A DNA stretch of 5,053 nt. Origin: a virus. Lineage: Duplodnaviria > Heunggongvirae > Uroviricota > Caudoviricetes. The stretch is from IMG/VR virus record IMGVR_UViG_2778261058_000018, positions 1 through 5,053 of that record. One strand, given 5' to 3'. The notes beneath the pieces were generated by a model that did not search any database, had not been told where the DNA came from, and saw only the letters and a list, made by a program, of their open reading frames with translations. Shown here piece after piece: positions 1 through 5,053 of the stretch. The translations under genes were made by a program, and so were the position numbers. Every line of letters begins with the position of its first letter. Position 1 is the first letter of the stretch.

Positions 1-414
1 GCCAGTGACACCATAAAAATGGTTTACACCGGAGACGGGCGCGTGGTGTGGGTTGGTAAGGATGTGACAGGTATTGAACCCCGTAACGCCAGTGTTATTG
101 AAATTCCTGATATTACCGCTAACCGCCGCATTACCGCACCGGGTTACTGGTTTTACCGCAATGATGAATTTGTTTTCGACTACAAACTTAAAGCGGAAGA
201 TGAGCGTGATGCCCTCTTAAAACAGGTCAGCATCATGACCAGCGAATGGGAAAAAGACCTGCTGCTGGGATTAATCAGCGATGAAGACAGGGAAAAACTG
301 AAAGCGTACCGCATTTACGCGAAATCGCTGCAGGCGCTGGATTTCAGCACCATCACTGATAAAACCTCATATAACGCCATCAACTGGCCGGAGCGTCCCG
401 ATGCCGCAGCTTAA
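1..414 (+). CDS. tfa: Tail fibre assembly protein (Tfa-type), 5'-partial; C-terminal ~138 codons in window
   Basis: The reading frame is open from window position 1 (first ATG at 19), so the gene most likely begins upstream. The C-terminal residues ...LKAYRIYAKSLQALDFSTITD...INWPERP follow the conserved C-terminal pattern of lambda Tfa as I recall it (..LEAWKKYRVLLNRVDTST..IEWPAVP..). Stop TAA at 412-414 overlaps the next gene's ATG at 401, suggesting translational coupling. Confidence 0.75.
   Translation, partial: ASDTIKMVYTGDGRVVWVGKDVTGIEPRNASVIEIPDITANRRITAPGYWFYRNDEFVFDYKLKAEDERDALLKQVSIMTSEWEKDLLLGLISDEDREKLKAYRIYAKSLQALDFSTITDKTSYNAINWPERPDAAA
390..393 (+). promoter_or_regulatory. Shine-Dalgarno (GGAG) for stf
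   Basis: GGAG lies 7 nt upstream of ATG 401, inside the 3' end of the upstream tfa ORF. Confidence 0.5.
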
Positions 415-3400
415 AGGTGTGATTAAAACTCCCACGGGTGAACCGCTGGGCGGCGCAACCATTACACTGACCTCCCTGCACAACCGTGCAGGGATTCTGA
501 AAAGTGTTTTCAGCCATGTCACCACACAGAACGGGGAGTATGACTTCCCCGTTCTGCCGGGTGTGTACAGCGTTCGCCTGACACAAAGCACACAGCGCCT
601 TTCAGAAATCGGTGTCATCCGCGTTTATGAAGATTCAGCGGATGGTTCGCTGAATGATTTTCTGGGCGCAACCGATATTGACCTGCGCCCGGAAGCCCTG
701 AAGAAATTCGAAGAGCTGGCGCAACAGGCGCAGCAAAGCGCAGAAAAAGCAGGAGAGCACGCCACCGCTGCTGAACAGGCCCGTCAGGATACAGAAACGC
801 TCGCCGGGGAAATACAGCAGGATGCAGAAGAAATTGCAGGTAATGTGCAGAAAGCTGAAAAGCTGGCCTCTGAAACAAACCAGAATGCCGCCCGCGCAGA
901 GCAGGCCGTCAAGGATGCCGACCTGATAGTCCAGAAAGCGGTCGATAAACTTGGTGAAGCTGCAACGCTGACCGGCGAGGCAAAAGCCAGCGCAGAAGCG
1001 GCAGCAAAAAGCGAGCAGAACGCGAAACAGCACAGGGACGAGGCGCAACGGATAGTCGATGACCTGAAAGGAACCAGCGCCAGCACGACGCAAAAAGGCC
1101 TGGTGCAACTCTGTAGTGACACGGACAACGACAGCGAGGAACTGGCAGCCACACCAAAGGCTGTCAAAACCGTCATGGACGAGACGAAAACAAAAGCGCC
1201 ACTGGACAGCCCGGCGTTCACCGGCACGCCAACCACACCAACCCCACCGGACGATGCAGTCGGTCTGGAAACCGCGAACGCGGCATTTGTCCGCAAACTG
1301 CTTGCCGCACTGGTTGACTCGTCCCCGGATGCCCTGGACACGCTGAATGAGCTGGCAGCTGCGCTGGGCAATGACCCGGAGTTTGCGACAACAATCATGA
1401 ACGCGCTGGCGGGTAAACAACCACTCAGTGACGTGTTAACCGCAATCAGTAATCTGGAAGAACGGGCAGATAATCTTCTGTGCTTTAATCAGGACGGGAA
1501 TGCTTCACTGTCTCCGCTGTCAGAAAAAGCCCGGTCACTGCTGGCACAGGCCACAGTGGAAGCCATGCGTAATGAGCTTGAGCTGAAAAGCGCAGCGGTA
1601 AGGGACATACAGACAGACCTTTACGACAGCACGGAAGGTCGCGTTGCGCTGCCTGGTGCATTTGGTTACGGAATGACGGACGCCGGAGCACGTTCAATTA
1701 TTGCCAGCAATATAGCGGATATAGCCAGAACCGCTCACAACCTGCACCCGGGACGGTATTACACCTTTTCCACGCGAACGGAAGAAACCACCGGGATAAC
1801 AGAAATTATCTGGCTGGATAATGGCTGGGGCGACAAAACCAGCCAGACAGCAACAAAGCTGGTTCTGTTCTTTGGAAAAGACGGACGGATTCTTATGACC
1901 GTTCGTGGCGATAATATCTCCGCCCCGGTCACCTGGACGAATCTGACGCCACAACTGGGCAATGCAGCACAAAAGGATGCGCAGGAGAATATTTACGACC
2001 GCACCGAAGGCCGCCTGGCGATTCCTGGCATGTTCGGTTTCGGGAAAATATTTTCCAGTAGCGACAGAACTGAATTTAAATCAGGGACTGATTTTCTCAG
2101 GTGGGTAAAAACAGCAAAACCCGGTCGTTATACCGTATTTGCGGACACAAATGTGGTGGTACCTGGCATACAGACAAACGGTGTTATTGAAATTATCTGG
2201 CCACAACCTAAAACCAGCCCGAATGATGAGTATGCCTATAAGATAATTATTTATTACGGTGTTAATGGTCATATTTATTATAACCGTTGCGCGGTGTCAT
2301 CAGATGGTGGTTATCTGGTTGGCTGGGAAAACCTGAAGGTTGATGAGGCTTCACTCAGGGCACTGATTGAAGCCCGCGCACCACTGAAAAGTCCGGCACT
2401 GACCGGAACTCCGACAGCACCAACACCGCCGGATGATGCAGCAGGTAATGAAATAGCCAATGCGGAGTTTGTCCGCAAACTGCTCGCTGCGCTGGTTGGC
2501 TCATCACCGGAAGCCCTCGACACACTGAACGAGCTGGCGGCGGCACTGGGCAATGACCCGAACTTTGCGACAACGGTCACTAATGCACTGGCAGGTAAAC
2601 AGCCGCTTAATGATGTGTTAACGGCTGTCAGCCAGATAACACCGGAAGAAAACACGCTGCCTTATTTCAGCGCAGATGGCCGGATTTTACTGGCGCAGCT
2701 GTCAGAAAAAGCCCGCGCATTACTGGCACTGGACACACCTGAAGCCATGCGCACGGAGCTTGAGCTGAAAGCGGCTGCGACGATGGAACCCCAGAGCGAT
2801 ATCCGCGACCGCACACCGGGCAGGCTGGCACTGTCCGGCATGTATGGGTTCGGTCAGGCATTTGCCAGCACCGAAGCCCTGACATTTGACGGACAGGCCG
2901 ATTTTGCTGAATGGCTGAAAGAGGCCACGCCGGGGCGTTATGCGGTCAGCATTGCGGACTCTTCCACACTACTGGCAGGCACCACAAAATTTAACGGCAT
3001 CATTGATGTGATGTGGTCGCCCTTTGATAACGATGAATCAGACACAACGCGTAAATTCAAAATGCTGCTGTGTTTTAACCAGTATTACGAAGGTGAGCAC
3101 AGTATTCATCGCCTGACTTACCGCTGGAGTGGAAACAACTGGAATGCAACAGTAAGCCCTGTCATTTACGACGGCGATTCGCTGGCGTTCTTACTGTCCC
3201 GGACAGCAGGCTCAGGCTCATATTTCAAATACCCGGCAGTGGGTGTTCCGGTGCTGGCTGTTTATCGCGGAACAACTTCCGGGGATAAAGAAATCAAAAT
3301 TGGCCTGGGTGATGTGGTGCAGGGGTCACAACTGGGCGGAGTTAATCTTTCGTGCACAATATCTTCTGCCGGGCCTGGCTCTTACGGTTCAACACCAAGT

Positions 3401-3508
3401 GCAGGAGCAACAGGGTACACTTTTCCGGGGCGTTATATGGCGTTATCCGGGGTCAGGGACTCTTACGGAACAAGCGGTCGTATCTGCCTGTTTGTGCGCA
3501 TCGAGTAA
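401..3508 (+). CDS. stf: Side tail fibre protein, lambda Stf-type, 1035 aa, modular
   Basis: ATG at 401 with GGAG at 390-393 (7-nt spacer); 1035 codons; stop TAA at 3506-3508. The N-terminus (..GVIRVYEDSADGSLNDFLGATDIDLRPEALKKFEEL..) and the segment TTQKGLVQL..LAATPKAVKTVMDETKTKAPLDSPAFTGTPT..ALDTLNELAAALGNDPEFATT..NALAGKQP resemble lambda Stf as recalled. An Ala/Glu/Gln-rich coiled-coil-like shaft spans aa ~105-225. Long uninterrupted ORF with uniform coding character. Confidence 0.9.
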   Translation: MPQLKGVIKTPTGEPLGGATITLTSLHNRAGILKSVFSHVTTQNGEYDFPVLPGVYSVRLTQSTQRLSEIGVIRVYEDSADGSLNDFLGATDIDLRPEALKKFEELAQQAQQSAEKAGEHATAAEQARQDTETLAGEIQQDAEEIAGNVQKAEKLASETNQNAARAEQAVKDADLIVQKAVDKLGEAATLTGEAKASAEAAAKSEQNAKQHRDEAQRIVDDLKGTSASTTQKGLVQLCSDTDNDSEELAATPKAVKTVMDETKTKAPLDSPAFTGTPTTPTPPDDAVGLETANAAFVRKLLAALVDSSPDALDTLNELAAALGNDPEFATTIMNALAGKQPLSDVLTAISNLEERADNLLCFNQDGNASLSPLSEKARSLLAQATVEAMRNELELKSAAVRDIQTDLYDSTEGRVALPGAFGYGMTDAGARSIIASNIADIARTAHNLHPGRYYTFSTRTEETTGITEIIWLDNGWGDKTSQTATKLVLFFGKDGRILMTVRGDNISAPVTWTNLTPQLGNAAQKDAQENIYDRTEGRLAIPGMFGFGKIFSSSDRTEFKSGTDFLRWVKTAKPGRYTVFADTNVVVPGIQTNGVIEIIWPQPKTSPNDEYAYKIIIYYGVNGHIYYNRCAVSSDGGYLVGWENLKVDEASLRALIEARAPLKSPALTGTPTAPTPPDDAAGNEIANAEFVRKLLAALVGSSPEALDTLNELAAALGNDPNFATTVTNALAGKQPLNDVLTAVSQITPEENTLPYFSADGRILLAQLSEKARALLALDTPEAMRTELELKAAATMEPQSDIRDRTPGRLALSGMYGFGQAFASTEALTFDGQADFAEWLKEATPGRYAVSIADSSTLLAGTTKFNGIIDVMWSPFDNDESDTTRKFKMLLCFNQYYEGEHSIHRLTYRWSGNNWNATVSPVIYDGDSLAFLLSRTAGSGSYFKYPAVGVPVLAVYRGTTSGDKEIKIGLGDVVQGSQLGGVNLSCTISSAGPGSYGSTPSAGATGYTFPGRYMALSGVRDSYGTSGRICLFVRIE
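1196..1450 (+). repeat. Intragenic direct repeat copy 1 (Stf collar segment, aa 266-350)
   Basis: In-frame duplicate of 2378-2632. Identical nucleotide runs include tttgtccgcaaactgct, ctgggcaatgacccg and tttgcgacaac. About 70 of 85 residues are identical by my hand count (APLDSPAFTGTPTTPTPPDD... vs APLKSPALTGTPTAPTPPDD...). Confidence 0.7.
2378..2632 (+). repeat. Intragenic direct repeat copy 2 (Stf collar segment, aa 660-744)
   Basis: Same frame, 1182 nt downstream of copy 1. Weaker similarity continues for ~70 further codons after each copy (..LSEKAR.LLA....EAMR.ELELK.. then D.T.GR.AL.G..G.G). Confidence 0.7.
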
Positions 3509-3510
3509 CG

Positions 3511-3514
3511 AGGA
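3511..3514 (+). promoter_or_regulatory. Shine-Dalgarno (AGGA) for the fibre-adjacent accessory ORF
   Basis: AGGA lies 8 nt upstream of ATG 3523, in the 14-nt gap after the stf stop. Confidence 0.5.
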
Positions 3515-3522
3515 AATAAAAC

Positions 3523-4098
3523 ATGAAAATCAGAGCGGTAAAAGGCATCAGAAACGCGCATTATCTCGAAAATGGTGCGGTTGACTGCGAGGTGCTATTT
3601 GAAGGTGAAAGGGAATTCGTCCCGTATACCGCCATGCAGGACGATAGCGCCCCGACAGGCCAGCGCATCTGGGAAGAGTTACAGAGCGGCAAATGGGGCG
3701 AAATCGCCCCGTTCACCGTCACGCCGGAACTTATCGCAGCGGCAAAAGATGCCAAAAAGCGGGAAATCGAGGTGTGGCGCACAGAACAGGAAGCGAAGCC
3801 GTTCACGTTCGAATGGAACGGCCACATCTGGAACGCTGGCCCCGACTCACTGGCTCGCCTTTATCCGGTGGTGATGGCATCAAAATCCGATATGGCATGC
3901 GACGTTATGACGTGGGGTGACGCCGATAATCAACAGGTGAAACTGTCGATACAGGAACTGGAAGAACTGGCGACAGCAATGGCGCAGGCACAGGTCGATC
4001 GCAATGACGAGATTTATCAGCGCCAGCGTGAAATGAAGGAGCAGCTTTCCCAGCTGTCCATACTCGACGAGGTGAGAGCGTTAACTGTCGGTGATTAA
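3523..4098 (+). CDS. Putative tail-fibre-associated accessory or chaperone-like protein, 191 aa; function uncertain
   Basis: ATG at 3523 with AGGA 8 nt upstream; starts 14 nt after the stf stop; stop TAA at 4096-4098. Position directly 3' of a fibre gene and size fit a fibre assembly chaperone. However, the C-terminus (..QLSQLSILDEVRALTVGD) lacks the Tfa-type motif seen in the upstream gene, so it would be a different family (possibly DUF4376-like; cannot be verified without an HMM search). Confidence 0.6.
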   Translation: MKIRAVKGIRNAHYLENGAVDCEVLFEGEREFVPYTAMQDDSAPTGQRIWEELQSGKWGEIAPFTVTPELIAAAKDAKKREIEVWRTEQEAKPFTFEWNGHIWNAGPDSLARLYPVVMASKSDMACDVMTWGDADNQQVKLSIQELEELATAMAQAQVDRNDEIYQRQREMKEQLSQLSILDEVRALTVGD

Positions 4099-4120: not shown

Positions 4121-4148
4121 GACGATCGATAACATCATATCGATCGTC
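4121..4148. promoter_or_regulatory. Perfect 11-bp inverted repeat (GACGATCGATA-acatca-TATCGATCGTC) carrying two GATC sites; candidate Dam-sensitive operator and/or weak terminator
   Basis: Read directly from the sequence: arms 4121-4131 and 4138-4148, GATC at 4124-4127 and 4142-4145. Sits in the 123-nt gap between the accessory ORF stop (4098) and com. Followed by GGTTTG rather than a strong T-tract. Confidence 0.4.
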
Positions 4149-4221: not shown

Positions 4222-4407
4222 ATGGACTCTGTTCGCTGTAAAAACTGCAATAAATTACTGTTTAAAGGAGGTTTTAAGCATATAGAAATTAAATGTCCTC
4301 GCTGTAAACGTTACATTGTCATATCGAATGCCAAAGAGCATCCCACGGAGCTGTATTGTGGGAAAAGAGAAGAAATCACGCATTCTGACAAAACCCTGCG
4401 TTATTGA
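4222..4407 (+). CDS. com: Com-like zinc-ribbon translational activator of mom, 61 aa
   Basis: ATG at 4222 preceded by GGGGGA at 4213-4218; stop TGA at 4405-4407. Product [61 protein letters not shown] has paired CxxC motifs (C6/C9, C25/C28) and closely resembles Mu Com as I recall it. The track's longer ORF from ATG 4195 has no ribosome-binding site, so 4222 is preferred. Confidence 0.85.
4341..4363 (+). promoter_or_regulatory. mRNA stem-loop occluding the putative mom SD and GTG start (candidate Com-responsive translation initiation region)
   Basis: UCCCACGG (4341-4348) can pair with UUGUGGGA (4356-4363): six Watson-Crick pairs plus two G-U, loop AGCUGUA. The stem includes GGAG 4347-4350 and GTG 4358-4360. 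Confidence 0.4.
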
Positions 4408-5053
4408 GTATGAAGGCCATATTGTCGGCTATGGTTCAAAGGAGCTGCGTGTTGAAACCATATCCTGCTGGCTGGCCCGCACAATCATTCAGACAAAGCA
4501 TTATTCCCGCCGTTTTGTGAATAACTCCTACCTGCATCTGGGCGTATTCAGCGGACGTGATCTGGTTGGTGTTCTTCAGTGGGGATATGCCCTTAACCCC
4601 AACTCAGGGCGCCGGGTCGTGCTTGAAACGGATAACCGGGGCTATATGGAACTGAACCGTATGTGGTTACACGATGACATGCCCCGCAACTCTGAATCAC
4701 GGGCCATCAGCTACGCGCTGAAAACCATCAGGTTACTGTATCCGTCAGTGGAGTGGGTTCAGTCCTTTGCAGACGAACGTTGCGGACGTGCAGGCGTGGT
4801 ATATCAGGCGTCGAATTTTGATTTTATTGGCAGCCATGAAAGCACGTTCTACGAGCTGGACGGCGAGTGGTATCACGAGATAACGATGAACGCGATTAAG
4901 CGTGGAGGGCAACGAGGCGTGTATTTGCGGGCTAATAAGGAGCGGGCCGTGGTACACAAATTTAATCAATATCGCTACATCAGATTCCTGAATAAGCGTG
5001 CAAAAAAGCGCCTAAACACCAAGCTATTCAGGATTCAGCCATACCCGAAGTGA
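4358..5053 (+). CDS. mom: Mom-like DNA modification protein (adenine N6-acetamido/methylcarbamoyl-type modification, anti-restriction)
   Basis: The frame is open from 4316 (TTG) to stop TGA at 5051-5053 and overlaps the 3' end of com in a different frame, which is the Mu com-mom arrangement. Preferred start is GTG 4358 (GGAG 4347-4350, 7-nt spacer), giving 231 aa. Alternatives are ATG 4328 (no SD) or TTG 4316. The translation (..[36 protein letters not shown]...[20 protein letters not shown]...) matches what I recall of Mu Mom. Confidence 0.85.

What the first reader, a model, noticed from the sequence alone, without database searches (positions are those of the whole stretch)
1..4098. Two different accessory genes flank stf; the Tfa-type gene lies upstream of the fibre and is translationally coupled to it
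In lambda-like modules the order is stf then tfa. Here a Tfa-type C-terminus precedes stf, with its stop overlapping the stf start by 14 nt, while a 191-aa ORF of a different type follows stf. Either a second fibre gene lies just upstream of the window (tandem fibre cassettes), or the module has been rearranged. The downstream 191-aa protein may be the actual chaperone for this fibre, or an unrelated moron sitting between the fibre and com-mom.
Basis: partly seen in the sequence, partly recalled or inferred. Interest (0 to 1): 0.4.

Follow-up and report, generated by a model that had tools for sequence, protein, structure and literature searches.

The report
Two tail-fibre cassettes in tandem
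The window is the right end of a Mu-like prophage that carries two tail-fibre genes in a row, each followed by its own helper gene, so the "upstream" Tfa belongs to a first fibre just outside the window and the 191-aa DUF4376 protein is the helper of the fibre in the window; this is a common, already annotated arrangement.

Summary
It comprises a Tfa-type 3' gene fragment (1-414), a 14-nt stop/start overlap with a 1035-aa Stf-type fibre gene (401-3508), a 191-aa gene of a different family (DUF4376, 3523-4098), then com and mom. The source contig starts 2 nt before the window, so the upstream gene cannot be read in this assembly. A contig that is 99.74% identical over all 5053 nt shows it: Mu gp48 – 366-aa Mu-S-like fibre – 181-aa Tfa (Mu gpU homologue) – this fibre – DUF4376 – com – mom. 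The same four-gene order recurs in 40 of 69 related loci (Mu-like, phiP27-like and E. coli W-type myoviral prophages). In 17 lambdoid loci the order is J–Lom–Stf–DUF4376, with no upstream Tfa.

Across loci, Tfa tracks the C-terminus of the upstream fibre (rho 0.82-0.85) and not that of the downstream fibre (about -0.05). The N-terminal 70 aa of the DUF4376 protein track the downstream fibre tip (rho 0.73-0.81). The DUF4376 protein is homologous to Alteromonas phage V22 gp27, an experimentally proven fibre chaperone.

The verdict is tandem fibre-plus-chaperone cassettes, not a rearranged module or a moron. The 14-nt overlap is specific to the Mu-like lineage and is not a general feature. The finding is ordinary and of low to moderate interest.

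The parts
1..414 (+). 3' part (codons 45-181 of 181) of a Caudo_TAP / Mu gpU-type tail fibre assembly gene. It is the helper of fibre 1, which lies outside the window.
   Evidence: PF02413 at 78.8 bits; phrog_136. The fragment is 137/137 identical to the 181-aa Tfa of L081. That full-length protein matches Mu Tfa U, PDB 5YVQ_B, at E 4.9e-39. The source contig starts 2 nt upstream of the window.
390..393 (+). Shine-Dalgarno-like GGAG, 7 nt upstream of the fibre start codon and inside the tfa coding sequence.
   Evidence: Read directly from the sequence. The same junction sequence is conserved in Mu-like loci L001, L004, L008, L011, L031 and others.
401..414 (+). 14-nt overlap between the tfa stop (TAA 412-414) and the fibre start (ATG 401-403).
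   Evidence: The overlap of -14 is present in 8 of 36 non-redundant related loci, all on the Mu-like backbone.
401..3508 (+). Fibre 2: a 1035-aa Stf-type accessory tail fibre.
   Evidence: PF08400, PF03406 and a weak PF13620 hit; phrog_2636 at 1.5e-249. The protein is 99.4-99.7% identical in L080 and L081.
401..949 (+). N-terminal anchor ('collar') domain plus the start of the coiled coil of fibre 2 (aa 1-183).
   Evidence: aa 3-183 match the Vibrio phage XM1 collar spike gp40 (7KJK, E 1.2e-9). aa 3-90 match the Ur-lambda Stf collar domain (9E7M/9MGH, E 9.6e-9). The attachment modes are described in the papers read.
1196..2770 (+). Internal duplication of the fibre shaft/knob module (copy 1 from 1196, copy 2 from 2378).
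   Evidence: 254-nt direct repeat, 78% identical, spacing 1182 nt. At protein level, aa 263-493 versus 657-894 are 56% identical.
3510..3514 (+). Shine-Dalgarno-like GAGGA, 8 nt upstream of the DUF4376 gene start.
   Evidence: Read directly from the sequence.
3523..4098 (+). 191-aa DUF4376-type protein, the predicted cognate chaperone of fibre 2.
   Evidence: PF14301 at 59.1 bits; phrog_1141 at 2.6e-85. Homology to the V22 chaperone gp27: BLASTP E 6e-7, hhalign probability 91.6% over 148 columns. The gene lies directly downstream of an Stf-type fibre in 70 loci.
3523..3732 (+). N-terminal module of about 70 aa (three beta-strands plus a helix in the AF2 model), the proposed fibre-tip-specific part.
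   Evidence: Its identity matrix correlates with that of the last 100 aa of fibre 2 (Spearman 0.81, n=62; 0.73, n=36; permutation p 0.0005). The AF2 model shows strands at 6-14, 20-26 and 33-37.
3739..4053 (+). Conserved DUF4376 domain (aa 73-177): a helical body with two beta-hairpins.
   Evidence: Pfam envelope 73-177. It shows no co-variation with the fibre tip (rho 0.06, p 0.21). The AF2 model has mean pLDDT 85.8. Its BFVD fold matches are DUF4376 proteins of many phage types.
4222..4407 (+). com (context: it marks the end of the tail module).
   Evidence: PF10122; phrog_13819 at 7e-43; gene call in L003.
4328..5053 (+). mom (context: the last prophage gene, whose stop codon is the last codon of the window).
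   Evidence: PF25680 at 253 bits. The gene call in L003 is followed by a dhaK remnant.

Best explanation
The window holds the second half of a tandem pair of fibre-plus-chaperone cassettes at the right end of a Mu-like (transposable) prophage.

Cassette 1 lies mostly outside the window. It is a Mu-S / P2-H-like, baseplate-attached fibre followed by its Mu-gpU-type Tfa, and only the last 137 codons of that Tfa are in the window. Cassette 2 is an accessory Stf-type fibre of 1035 aa followed by a DUF4376-type protein.

Proposed mechanism; each step is inferred unless a source is named:
- Tfa folds and trimerises the C-terminal tip of fibre 1, as shown for Mu gpU.
- The DUF4376 protein does the same for fibre 2. 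Its variable N-terminal beta-strand module docks on the fibre tip. Its conserved helical DUF4376 body trimerises as a transient cap. Experiments showed that V22 gp27 is needed for a functional fibre and that A5 gp9 binds its fibre; the docking and capping geometry is those authors' AlphaFold-Multimer model.
- Fibre 2 would join the virion through its N-terminal collar domain, independently of the baseplate socket used by fibre 1. The particle would then display two receptor-binding fibres.

In this lineage cassette 2 occupies the place that the inverted S'/U' genes and gin occupy in Mu. The 14-nt tfa/fibre overlap reflects tight packing of the late operon in the Mu-like lineage and may couple translation. 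It does not indicate that Tfa serves the downstream fibre.
For: Shown here:
1. Family assignments for all genes.
2. L081 is 99.74% identical over all 5053 nt of the window and carries gp48 – 366-aa fibre – 181-aa Tfa – 1035-aa fibre – DUF4376 – com – mom, with no invertase.
3. [quoted passage not shown] The Tfa matches Mu gpU, 5YVQ_B, at E 4.9e-39.
4. The four-gene order recurs in STEC1575, FDAARGOS_943, ETEC1732, E. coli W, P393-F10, NRZ103545 and phage phiP27. It is present in 40 of 69 related loci.
5. In 17 loci the order is lambda J – Lom – Stf – DUF4376, and 7 more loci have another upstream gene. In none of these is there a Caudo_TAP gene next to the fibre.
6. Co-variation of identity matrices. 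Tfa versus the fibre-1 C-terminus gives rho 0.82 and 0.85. Tfa versus the fibre-2 C-terminus gives -0.04 and -0.09. The DUF4376 N-terminal 70 aa versus the fibre-2 C-terminus gives 0.81 and 0.73, and versus the fibre-1 C-terminus -0.04.
7. A natural swap: L080 and L081 share fibre 2 and DUF4376 (99.4% and 100% identical) but differ in fibre 1 and Tfa (62% and 40%). The breakpoint is at about window position 322.
8. Homology to the experimentally validated chaperone V22 gp27 (experiments described in PMC7289586).
9. The AF2 model (pLDDT 85.8) has three N-terminal strands, a helical body and beta-hairpins. This matches the architecture described for V22 gp27 and A5 gp9 (PMC10579305).
10. The fibre N-terminus is homologous to the collar domains of Ur-lambda Stf and XM1 gp40 (papers).
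Against: - Nothing here is experimental for this prophage.
- The upstream fibre is inferred from near-identical and related loci, because the source contig ends at the window.
- Co-variation is confounded by physical adjacency: each chaperone gene abuts the fibre end that it tracks. The sharp drop within the DUF4376 gene (0.81 to 0.06 over about 200 nt) could partly reflect recombination at the conserved domain.
- The related loci were collected by similarity to the DUF4376 protein, so adjacency frequencies are conditional on that.
- Foldseek found no solved structure similar to the AF2 model (no hit at E <= 0.001). The published resemblance to intramolecular chaperone domains was therefore not reproduced.
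- The AF2 alignment was shallow (sequences 86-100% identical).
- Whether fibre 2 is actually mounted on a Mu-like contractile-tail virion, and where, is unknown.
- In one relative (STEC1575) the fibre-2 gene is a pseudogene.
Confidence: 0.85

Rival explanations
1. Rearranged module: the upstream Tfa is the chaperone of the downstream Stf-type fibre (gene order inverted relative to lambda), and translational coupling sets their stoichiometry.
For: The 14-nt stop/start overlap. Lambda Stf normally uses a Caudo_TAP Tfa (established knowledge). Tfa identity correlates moderately with the fibre-2 N-terminus (rho 0.48-0.61).
Against: - Tfa does not co-vary with the fibre-2 C-terminus, the part that Tfa proteins act on (rho -0.04 and -0.09).
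- L080 and L081 keep the same fibre 2 with a 40%-identical Tfa.
- Twenty-nine of 69 loci have the Stf-type fibre plus DUF4376 with no adjacent Caudo_TAP gene.
- In every locus where Tfa precedes fibre 2, except one cut by a contig end, another fibre-like ORF lies immediately upstream of Tfa (40 of 41).
- The overlap is lineage-specific, and other lineages even have a terminator-like hairpin between the two genes.
- The correlation with the fibre-2 N-terminus equals the backbone and linkage signal (fibre-1 C-terminus versus fibre-2 N-terminus, rho 0.55).
Confidence: 0.04
2. The 191-aa protein is a moron or cargo gene unrelated to the fibre that happens to sit between the tail genes and com-mom.
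For: DUF4376 is formally a domain of unknown function. NCBIfam has no model for the protein, and there is no solved structural relative.
Against: - It is invariably adjacent to an Stf-type fibre across at least four different phage backbones (70 loci).
- It is separated from the fibre stop by 14 nt, with its own SD and no promoter-like site.
- Its N-terminal module co-varies with the fibre tip.
- It is homologous to V22 gp27, which is required for a functional receptor-binding fibre.
- The PHROG families it matches are all in the tail category.
Confidence: 0.03
3. The DUF4376 protein is not (only) a transient chaperone. It stays on the fibre tip as a structural cap or adhesin, like T2 gp38 or Mu Tfa, and contributes to receptor recognition.
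For: Phrog_1141 and several database records call it a 'tail fiber protein'. The A5 gp9 chaperone remains bound to its fibre under high salt, and Mu Tfa stays bound (stated in the papers). The N-terminal module is the hypervariable part, as expected for a surface-exposed element.
Against: V22 gp27, the closest characterised relative, separates from the mature fibre and is not needed for binding afterwards. There is no evidence here for a receptor-binding surface.
Confidence: 0.2
4. Cassette 2 is a recombinational passenger that is expressed but not mounted on the Mu-like particle, or is decaying.
For: The fibre-2 gene is a pseudogene in STEC1575. Stf-type collar domains are documented on the lambda tail tube and on the XM1 neck but not on Mu-type tails. 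Lambda itself lost Stf in the laboratory without loss of viability.
Against: - The 1035-aa ORF is intact and 99.4-99.7% identical in independent assemblies.
- The fibre-2 N-terminal domain co-varies with the phage backbone (rho about 0.5-0.6), as expected for an anchor adapted to its virion.
- The four-gene arrangement is maintained across three myoviral lineages.
Confidence: 0.1

Closest known systems
Stx2e phage phiP27 genes L54-L57 (and prophages of E. coli W, Rac-SA53 tail1-tail4)
   Same: The same four-gene order: fibre – Caudo_TAP Tfa – Stf-type fibre – DUF4376 protein, at the end of a contractile-tail module. The phiP27 DUF4376 protein is 75.5% identical to the window's.
   Different: The backbone differs (phiP27 is not Mu-like and has no com-mom). 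The phiP27 fibre 2 is shorter (490 aa). The tfa-to-fibre spacer is +23 nt rather than a 14-nt overlap. L57 was annotated 'unknown'.
Phage Mu S-U / S'-U' G segment with Gin
   Same: The same backbone and position: gp48, then an S-like fibre and a U-like Tfa, then com-mom. Both encode two alternative receptor-binding fibres.
   Different: There is no gin, no inverted repeats and no gix-like site. The second fibre is on the same strand, is of the Stf (collar-anchored) type rather than an alternative S C-terminus, and has a DUF4376 helper instead of U'. Both fibres can therefore be made at once rather than alternately.
Alteromonas phage V22 gp26/gp27 and A5 gp8/gp9 (DUF4376 chaperones, 'transient chaperone caps')
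   Same: A DUF4376 protein of about 190 aa encoded immediately downstream of the receptor-binding fibre. Collinear homology (25% identity, hhalign probability 91.6%). The same predicted layout of N-terminal strands, helical body and beta-hairpin.
   Different: The relationship is distant, and the partner fibres are unrelated in type and length. The enterobacterial protein is untested. Foldseek did not recover the resemblance to intramolecular chaperone domains that the authors report.
Lambda stf-tfa (Ur-lambda side tail fibres)
   Same: The fibre has the Stf N-terminal collar domain (PF08400; 9E7M hit). In 17 related loci it sits after J-lom, exactly like lambda stf.
   Different: The helper gene downstream is DUF4376, not Caudo_TAP. 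In the window the fibre sits in a myovirus (Mu-like) module, where the tube is covered by a sheath, so the lambda docking site (the gpV/gpM junction) is not available as such.
Vibrio myophage XM1 collar spike gp40
   Same: A homologous N-terminal beta-sandwich domain followed by a coiled coil (aa 3-183, E 1.2e-9). It is a precedent for this domain mounting an accessory fibre or spike on a contractile-tail phage, at the neck.
   Different: The XM1 distal part is a tailspike, its gene is not in the baseplate and fibre cluster, and no DUF4376 helper is described for it.

Membership tests
Caudo_TAP / Mu gpU-type tail fibre assembly protein (upstream ORF) | Sequence match to the family model above the curated threshold | tested here: met
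   PF02413 at 78.8 bits against a cut-off of 22.1, profile positions 8-130 of 131; phrog_136 at 1.3e-38.
Caudo_TAP / Mu gpU-type tail fibre assembly protein (upstream ORF) | Homology to the structurally and functionally characterised Tfa of Mu | tested here: met
   The full-length 181-aa protein of L081, identical to the window over all 137 residues, matches 5YVQ_B 'Tail fiber assembly protein U' at E 4.9e-39 over residues 1-158.
Caudo_TAP / Mu gpU-type tail fibre assembly protein (upstream ORF) | A separate small gene immediately downstream of the fibre gene it serves | tested here: met
   This is not visible in the window (contig end). In the 99.74%-identical L081, fibre 1 ends at 6344 and tfa starts at 6347. 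The same holds in 40 of 41 loci.
Caudo_TAP / Mu gpU-type tail fibre assembly protein (upstream ORF) | Specificity linked to the C-terminus of its partner fibre | tested here: met
   Co-variation with the fibre-1 C-terminus gives rho 0.82 and 0.85; with the fibre-2 C-terminus it gives -0.04 and -0.09. The signal is confounded by adjacency.
Caudo_TAP / Mu gpU-type tail fibre assembly protein (upstream ORF) | Chaperone activity on the fibre | not testable with these tools
   Requires co-expression and folding assays.
DUF4376-type intermolecular tail fibre chaperone (V22 gp27 / A5 gp9 class) | DUF4376 domain in the C-terminal two thirds of a protein of about 190 aa | tested here: met
   PF14301 at 59.1 bits against a cut-off of 25, residues 73-177 of 191. 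In V22 gp27 the domain spans 92-184 of 195 residues.
DUF4376-type intermolecular tail fibre chaperone (V22 gp27 / A5 gp9 class) | Homology to an experimentally validated member | tested here: met
   Against V22 gp27 (MN877442 ORF27): BLASTP E 6e-7, 25% identity over 131 aa; hhalign probability 91.6%, E 8.4e-7, 148 columns.
DUF4376-type intermolecular tail fibre chaperone (V22 gp27 / A5 gp9 class) | Gene immediately downstream of the receptor-binding fibre gene | tested here: met
   A 14-nt spacer in the window. The gene is adjacent to an Stf-type fibre in 70 loci from several phage backbones.
DUF4376-type intermolecular tail fibre chaperone (V22 gp27 / A5 gp9 class) | N-terminal beta-strands that pair with, and co-evolve with, the fibre head; helical core; beta-hairpin 'tentacle' | tested here: met
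   The AF2 model (pLDDT 85.8) has strands at 6-14, 20-26 and 33-37, helices at 44-55, 68-90, 109-122 and 143-176, and hairpins at 94-105 and 128-142. The N-terminal 70 aa co-vary with the fibre tip (rho 0.81), whereas the DUF4376 domain does not (0.06). The comparison with the published description is qualitative.
DUF4376-type intermolecular tail fibre chaperone (V22 gp27 / A5 gp9 class) | Fold resemblance to intramolecular chaperone domains (T5 pb1 4UW8, K1F 3GW6) | tested here: not met
   A Foldseek search of the whole model against PDB gave no match at E <= 0.001 and did not list these entries. Domain-wise or trimer comparisons were not possible.
DUF4376-type intermolecular tail fibre chaperone (V22 gp27 / A5 gp9 class) | Required for production of a functional fibre | not testable with these tools
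   Requires co-expression and binding assays.
Lambda Stf-type side tail fibre | N-terminal collar/anchor domain (PF08400) homologous to Ur-lambda gpStfN | tested here: met
   PF08400 at 92.5 bits. The 9E7M/9MGH chain gives E 9.6e-9 for aa 3-90, and XM1 gp40 (7KJK) gives E 1.2e-9.
Lambda Stf-type side tail fibre | Followed by a Caudo_TAP tfa gene | tested here: not met
   The downstream gene is DUF4376. No Caudo_TAP ORF lies within 350 nt downstream of the fibre in any of the loci.
Lambda Stf-type side tail fibre | Located after J and lom in a siphovirus tail module | tested here: not met
   The window lies in a Mu-like myovirus module. The feature is met in 17 related lambdoid loci.
Mu/P1-type invertible fibre segment (G/C segment) | Serine invertase gene, flanking inverted repeats with gix/cix sites, and oppositely oriented alternative fibre and Tfa genes | tested here: not met
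   There is no invertase among the genes, no inverted repeats of 20 nt or more, and no match to a Hin/Gin-type crossover consensus with up to 3 mismatches.
Translationally coupled gene pair | Overlapping stop and start codons, conserved among relatives, with downstream translation dependent on upstream translation | tested here: inconclusive
   The overlap is present (401-414) with an independent GGAG. It is conserved only in the Mu-like lineage (8 of 36 loci). Dependence cannot be tested in silico.

The most novel reading that the evidence does not exclude
This Mu-like lineage may have replaced Mu's invertible G segment (alternating S/U and S'/U' fibres, plus gin) with a constitutively co-expressed second fibre of the lambda-Stf collar type and its DUF4376 cap chaperone. 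The contractile-tail virion would then carry two fibre sets at once. One would be an S-like set on the baseplate. The other would be an Stf-like set anchored by a collar domain at the neck, as in XM1, or at another ring. That is a different solution to host-range bet-hedging, and a docking mode not yet seen on Mu-type particles.
Probability: 0.4. Interest if true: 0.45.

Novelty: new member of a known kind. Interest (0 to 1): 0.25.

Why it matters
- Annotation: a Tfa gene upstream of a fibre gene should be assigned to the preceding fibre. 'DUF4376 domain-containing protein' genes downstream of Stf-type fibres in hundreds of E. coli, Salmonella and other prophages can reasonably be called fibre chaperones.
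- Phage and pyocin engineering: retargeting with this class of fibre tips would need the matching DUF4376 N-terminal module, not the upstream Tfa.
- Biology: many enterobacterial myoviral prophages encode two independent fibre systems, and a Mu-like lineage has one in place of the G-inversion switch.

None of this overturns current understanding.

Tried and rejected
1. Reading the true upstream sequence. The only contigs carrying this exact fibre start 2 nt before the window, so near-identical contigs found through the DUF4376 protein were used instead.
2. Testing whether Tfa and DUF4376 are remote homologues, as one paper implies. hhalign of the local alignments gave probability 0.3%, and no ORF is hit by both HMMs. 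The idea was rejected at this depth. The profiles were shallow, and the DUF4376 alignment contained a few out-of-frame ORFs.
3. Sequence search of the 191-aa protein against PDB gave nothing meaningful. Foldseek against PDB gave no hit at E <= 0.001. BFVD returned only other uncharacterised DUF4376 proteins.
4. NCBIfam gave no hits for any of the three proteins.
5. Looking for an inversion system. There is no gix/cix-like site and no inverted repeats. The megablast hit to the P1 S gene near cixR (H23) is just the conserved fibre repeat.
6. Promoter and terminator scan. No sigma-70-like site on the + strand and nothing convincing between the genes.
7. A homologue search for a deep alignment returned only sequences that are at least 86% identical among the 120 listed, so the AF2 alignment was shallow.
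8. A fibre-chaperone complex prediction could not be run, because no multimer mode is available and the two genes are in different frames.
9. The start-to-stop distances were overestimated by 3 nt for lineages without the overlap. They were corrected by reading the junctions.

Full report
WHAT IS IN THE WINDOW. Six-frame ORF listing and family searches give five co-directional genes.
- 1-414: the 3' end of a tail fibre assembly gene. Frame 1 is open from base 1, giving 137 codons. It matches Pfam Caudo_TAP at 78.8 bits and phrog_136.
- 401-3508: a 1035-aa fibre. It has an N-terminal 'prophage tail fibre N-terminal' domain (PF08400, 92.5 bits), a Phage_fiber_2 repeat and many tail-fibre PHROGs.
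- 3523-4098: a 191-aa protein with a DUF4376 domain (PF14301, 59.1 bits, residues 73-177; phrog_1141).
- 4222-4407: com.
- 4328-5053: mom.

The stop of the first gene (TAA 412-414) overlaps the fibre start (ATG 401) by 14 nt. A GGAG lies 7 nt upstream of that ATG. The fibre stop and the 191-aa gene are 14 nt apart, with a GAGGA in between.

The two accessory proteins are unrelated at sequence level. hhalign of local alignments gives probability 0.3%, and no ORF is hit by both HMMs.

ORIGIN AND THE MISSING UPSTREAM SEQUENCE. The exact fibre protein is encoded on an E. coli contig (NLOO01000030.1) that begins 2 nt before the window. A truncated dhaK follows mom, which marks the right end of a transposable Mu-like prophage. 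The upstream region cannot be read in that assembly.

Searching with the DUF4376 protein gave a 98%-identical protein. One of its contigs, L081, is 99.74% identical to the window over all 5053 nt (13 mismatches, no gaps). It extends upstream with this gene order: tape measure, DNA circularisation protein, baseplate genes gp44-48, a 366-aa protein, a 181-aa Caudo_TAP protein, the 1035-aa fibre, DUF4376, com, mom.

The 181-aa protein is identical to the window fragment over all 137 residues, so the window lacks only its first 44 codons. The full-length protein matches Mu Tfa gpU (PDB 5YVQ_B) at E 4.9e-39.

A 93%-identical homologue of the 366-aa protein (L004) aligns with Mu fibre gpS over 99% of its length and with the C-terminus of P2-type fibres. 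It also matches tail-fibre PHROGs, although it has almost no Pfam coverage.

The Tfa in the window is thus the U-equivalent of an S-equivalent fibre that lies just outside the window.

RECURRENCE. The order baseplate J – gp48/I – fibre 1 – Tfa – Stf-type fibre 2 – DUF4376 is annotated in several places:
- complete E. coli genomes carrying Mu-like prophages (STEC1575, FDAARGOS_943, ETEC1732);
- an unrelated myoviral prophage next to uspF (E. coli W, P393-F10, NRZ103545);
- the Stx2e phage phiP27, genes L54-L57.

A scan of IMG/VR with the 191-aa protein returned 71 loci. ORF classification by BLAST and HMM found 70 loci, counting the window itself, in which an Stf-type fibre is followed directly by a DUF4376 gene. 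Among the 69 loci other than the window, the gene upstream of that fibre was as follows:
- 40 loci: a Caudo_TAP gene lies immediately upstream of the fibre. Counting the window as well gives 41 such loci; in 40 of them a further ORF of at least 150 aa lies upstream of the Tfa, and the exception is cut by a contig end.
- 17 loci: Lom, itself preceded by a lambda-J-type central fibre (Pfam check). This is the lambda stf position, with DUF4376 in the tfa slot.
- 7 loci: a gpD-like gene.
- 5 loci: other genes.

The Stf-type fibre and the DUF4376 gene therefore travel together in at least four backbones, and 29 of these loci have no adjacent Tfa.

WHO SERVES WHOM. I compared pairwise identity matrices of protein segments across non-redundant loci, using Mantel-type Spearman correlation with 2000 permutations.
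- Tfa versus the last 100 aa of fibre 1: rho 0.82 for the N-terminal half of Tfa and 0.85 for the C-terminal half (p 0.0005).
- Tfa versus the last 100 aa of fibre 2: rho -0.04 and -0.09.
- N-terminal 70 aa of the DUF4376 protein versus the last 100 aa of fibre 2: rho 0.81 (n=62) and 0.73 (n=36).
- The same 70 aa versus the fibre-1 tip: rho -0.04.
- The conserved DUF4376 domain versus the last 100 aa of fibre 2: rho 0.06.

A natural experiment agrees. L080 and L081 share fibre 2 and DUF4376 (99.4% and 100% identical) but have different fibre 1 and Tfa (62% and 40%). The breakpoint is at about window position 322.

One caveat applies. Each helper gene is physically adjacent to the fibre end it tracks, so linkage contributes to these correlations. 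The absence of any Tfa/fibre-2-tip signal and the Tfa-less lambdoid loci are the stronger arguments.

WHAT THE DUF4376 PROTEIN IS. The literature shows DUF4376 proteins acting as fibre chaperones.
- Alteromonas myophage V22 gp27 (195 aa, encoded directly downstream of the receptor-binding fibre gp26) is required for functional gp26 and is not part of the final complex (PMC7289586).
- A5 gp9 and relatives are modelled as trimeric 'transient caps'. Their N-terminal beta-strands pair with the fibre head, and they have a helical core and a beta-hairpin tentacle (PMC10579305).
- A Campylobacter CJIE1 H-fibre needs its downstream DUF4376 gene (PMC7882524).

I fetched V22 gp27. The window protein aligns with it collinearly: BLASTP E 6e-7, and hhalign probability 91.6% over 148 columns.

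An AF2 model (mean pLDDT 85.8, from a shallow alignment) shows three N-terminal strands, a helical body and two beta-hairpins. This is qualitatively the published layout. The co-varying N-terminal 70 aa are exactly the strand module that the Alteromonas study proposed to co-evolve with the fibre head.

Foldseek found no solved structure similar to the model, so the reported likeness to intramolecular chaperone domains was not reproduced. In BFVD the model matches DUF4376 proteins of podo-, sipho-, myo- and crAss-like phages.

HOW FIBRE 2 MAY ATTACH. Residues 3-183 of the fibre match the N-terminal domain and coiled coil of the XM1 'collar spike' gp40 (7KJK, E 1.2e-9). Residues 3-90 match the Ur-lambda Stf collar domain (9E7M/9MGH, E 9.6e-9). 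In Ur-lambda, twelve such domains (four trimers) form a collar around the gpV/gpM junction (PMC12617516). In the myophage XM1, six trimers bind the neck proteins.

Across loci, the fibre-2 N-terminus co-varies with the phage backbone (rho about 0.5-0.6), as expected for an anchor. It is an inference that this Mu-like particle mounts fibre 2 through such a collar, independently of the baseplate socket used by fibre 1.

COMPARISON WITH MU. The backbone and the com-mom end are Mu-like (about 89% nt identity to Mu, D108 and SfMu over 4232-5053). Between U and com, however, Mu has the inverted S'/U' genes and gin. Here there is no invertase, no inverted repeat and no gix-like site. That slot holds cassette 2 on the same strand.

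THE OVERLAP. The ATGCCGCAGCTTAA junction is conserved in the Mu-like loci only (8 of 36 non-redundant loci). The W-type and phiP27-type loci have a 23-nt spacer. Others have spacers of about 45-63 nt, and four of these contain a GC-rich hairpin plus a T-run. Coupling is possible in this lineage but is not a property of the arrangement. The fibre gene also has its own ribosome-binding motif.

VERDICT. The 'tandem cassettes' reading and the 'downstream protein is the real chaperone' reading are supported. The 'rearranged module' and 'moron' readings are not.

The arrangement has been present in databases since phiP27 (deposited as AJ298298), and DUF4376 chaperones have been described since 2020. 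This is therefore a new member of a known kind. Three points go a little beyond current annotation:
- the quantitative evidence that the N-terminal module of enterobacterial DUF4376 proteins is the tip-specific part;
- the substitution of Mu's G segment by an Stf/DUF4376 cassette;
- the implied dual-fibre virion with a collar-type anchor.

Noticed in passing
window 1196-1449 vs 2378-2631 (extending to about 1588 / 2770): The fibre gene contains an internal duplication with a period of 1182 nt (78% nt identity). At protein level, aa 263-493 and 657-894 are 56% identical. Three knob-like copies (aa about 404-497, 531-625 and 798-894) are 35-51% identical. The shaft therefore carries stacked repeated modules.
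   Followed up: partly
window 4121-4148: A 28-nt palindrome, GACGATCGATAACATCATATCGATCGTC, with two GATC sites lies in the spacer between the DUF4376 gene and com. From memory, it recalls the Dam/OxyR-controlled region upstream of Mu mom. It was read from the sequence only.
   Followed up: no
window 401-949 (fibre aa 1-183): The fibre N-terminus is homologous to the neck-bound collar spike gp40 of myophage XM1 and to the Ur-lambda Stf collar domain. This suggests a collar or neck attachment on a contractile-tail phage.
   Followed up: partly
window 1-210 and 3685-4095: The same PHROG family (phrog_11571, 223 positions) is hit by the Tfa fragment (aa 2-69 to profile positions 39-104) and by the DUF4376 protein (aa 55-190 to positions 84-219). 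This hints at natural hybrids with a Tfa-type N-terminal part and a DUF4376 C-terminal domain, that is, module shuffling between the two chaperone classes.
   Followed up: no
L013, L015, L046, L070 (junction between Tfa and fibre 2): In these lineages the spacer between Tfa and the Stf-type fibre contains a GC-rich hairpin followed by a T-run (for example CAGCCGCCAGCAGGCGGCTTTTTAT). This suggests that the second cassette can be a separate transcription unit.
   Followed up: no
L080 vs L081; window about 322: Two prophages share fibre 2, DUF4376, com and mom at 99% or more but differ in fibre 1 and Tfa (62% and 40% aa identity). The recombination breakpoint lies inside the conserved 3' end of tfa.
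   Followed up: yes
window 5053 and L003 5120-5284; L001, L004, L008, L080 flanks: The prophage ends right after mom. It is inserted at a different chromosomal site in each strain: in dhaK here, in flhA, next to a molR-family pseudogene, beside pduF, and next to dicB/Rac-type prophage genes. This is typical of transposable Mu-like phages.
   Followed up: partly
L001 12070-14004: In STEC1575 the fibre-2 gene is annotated as a pseudogene lacking its C-terminus, while the DUF4376 gene downstream is intact. The second cassette can therefore decay.
   Followed up: no
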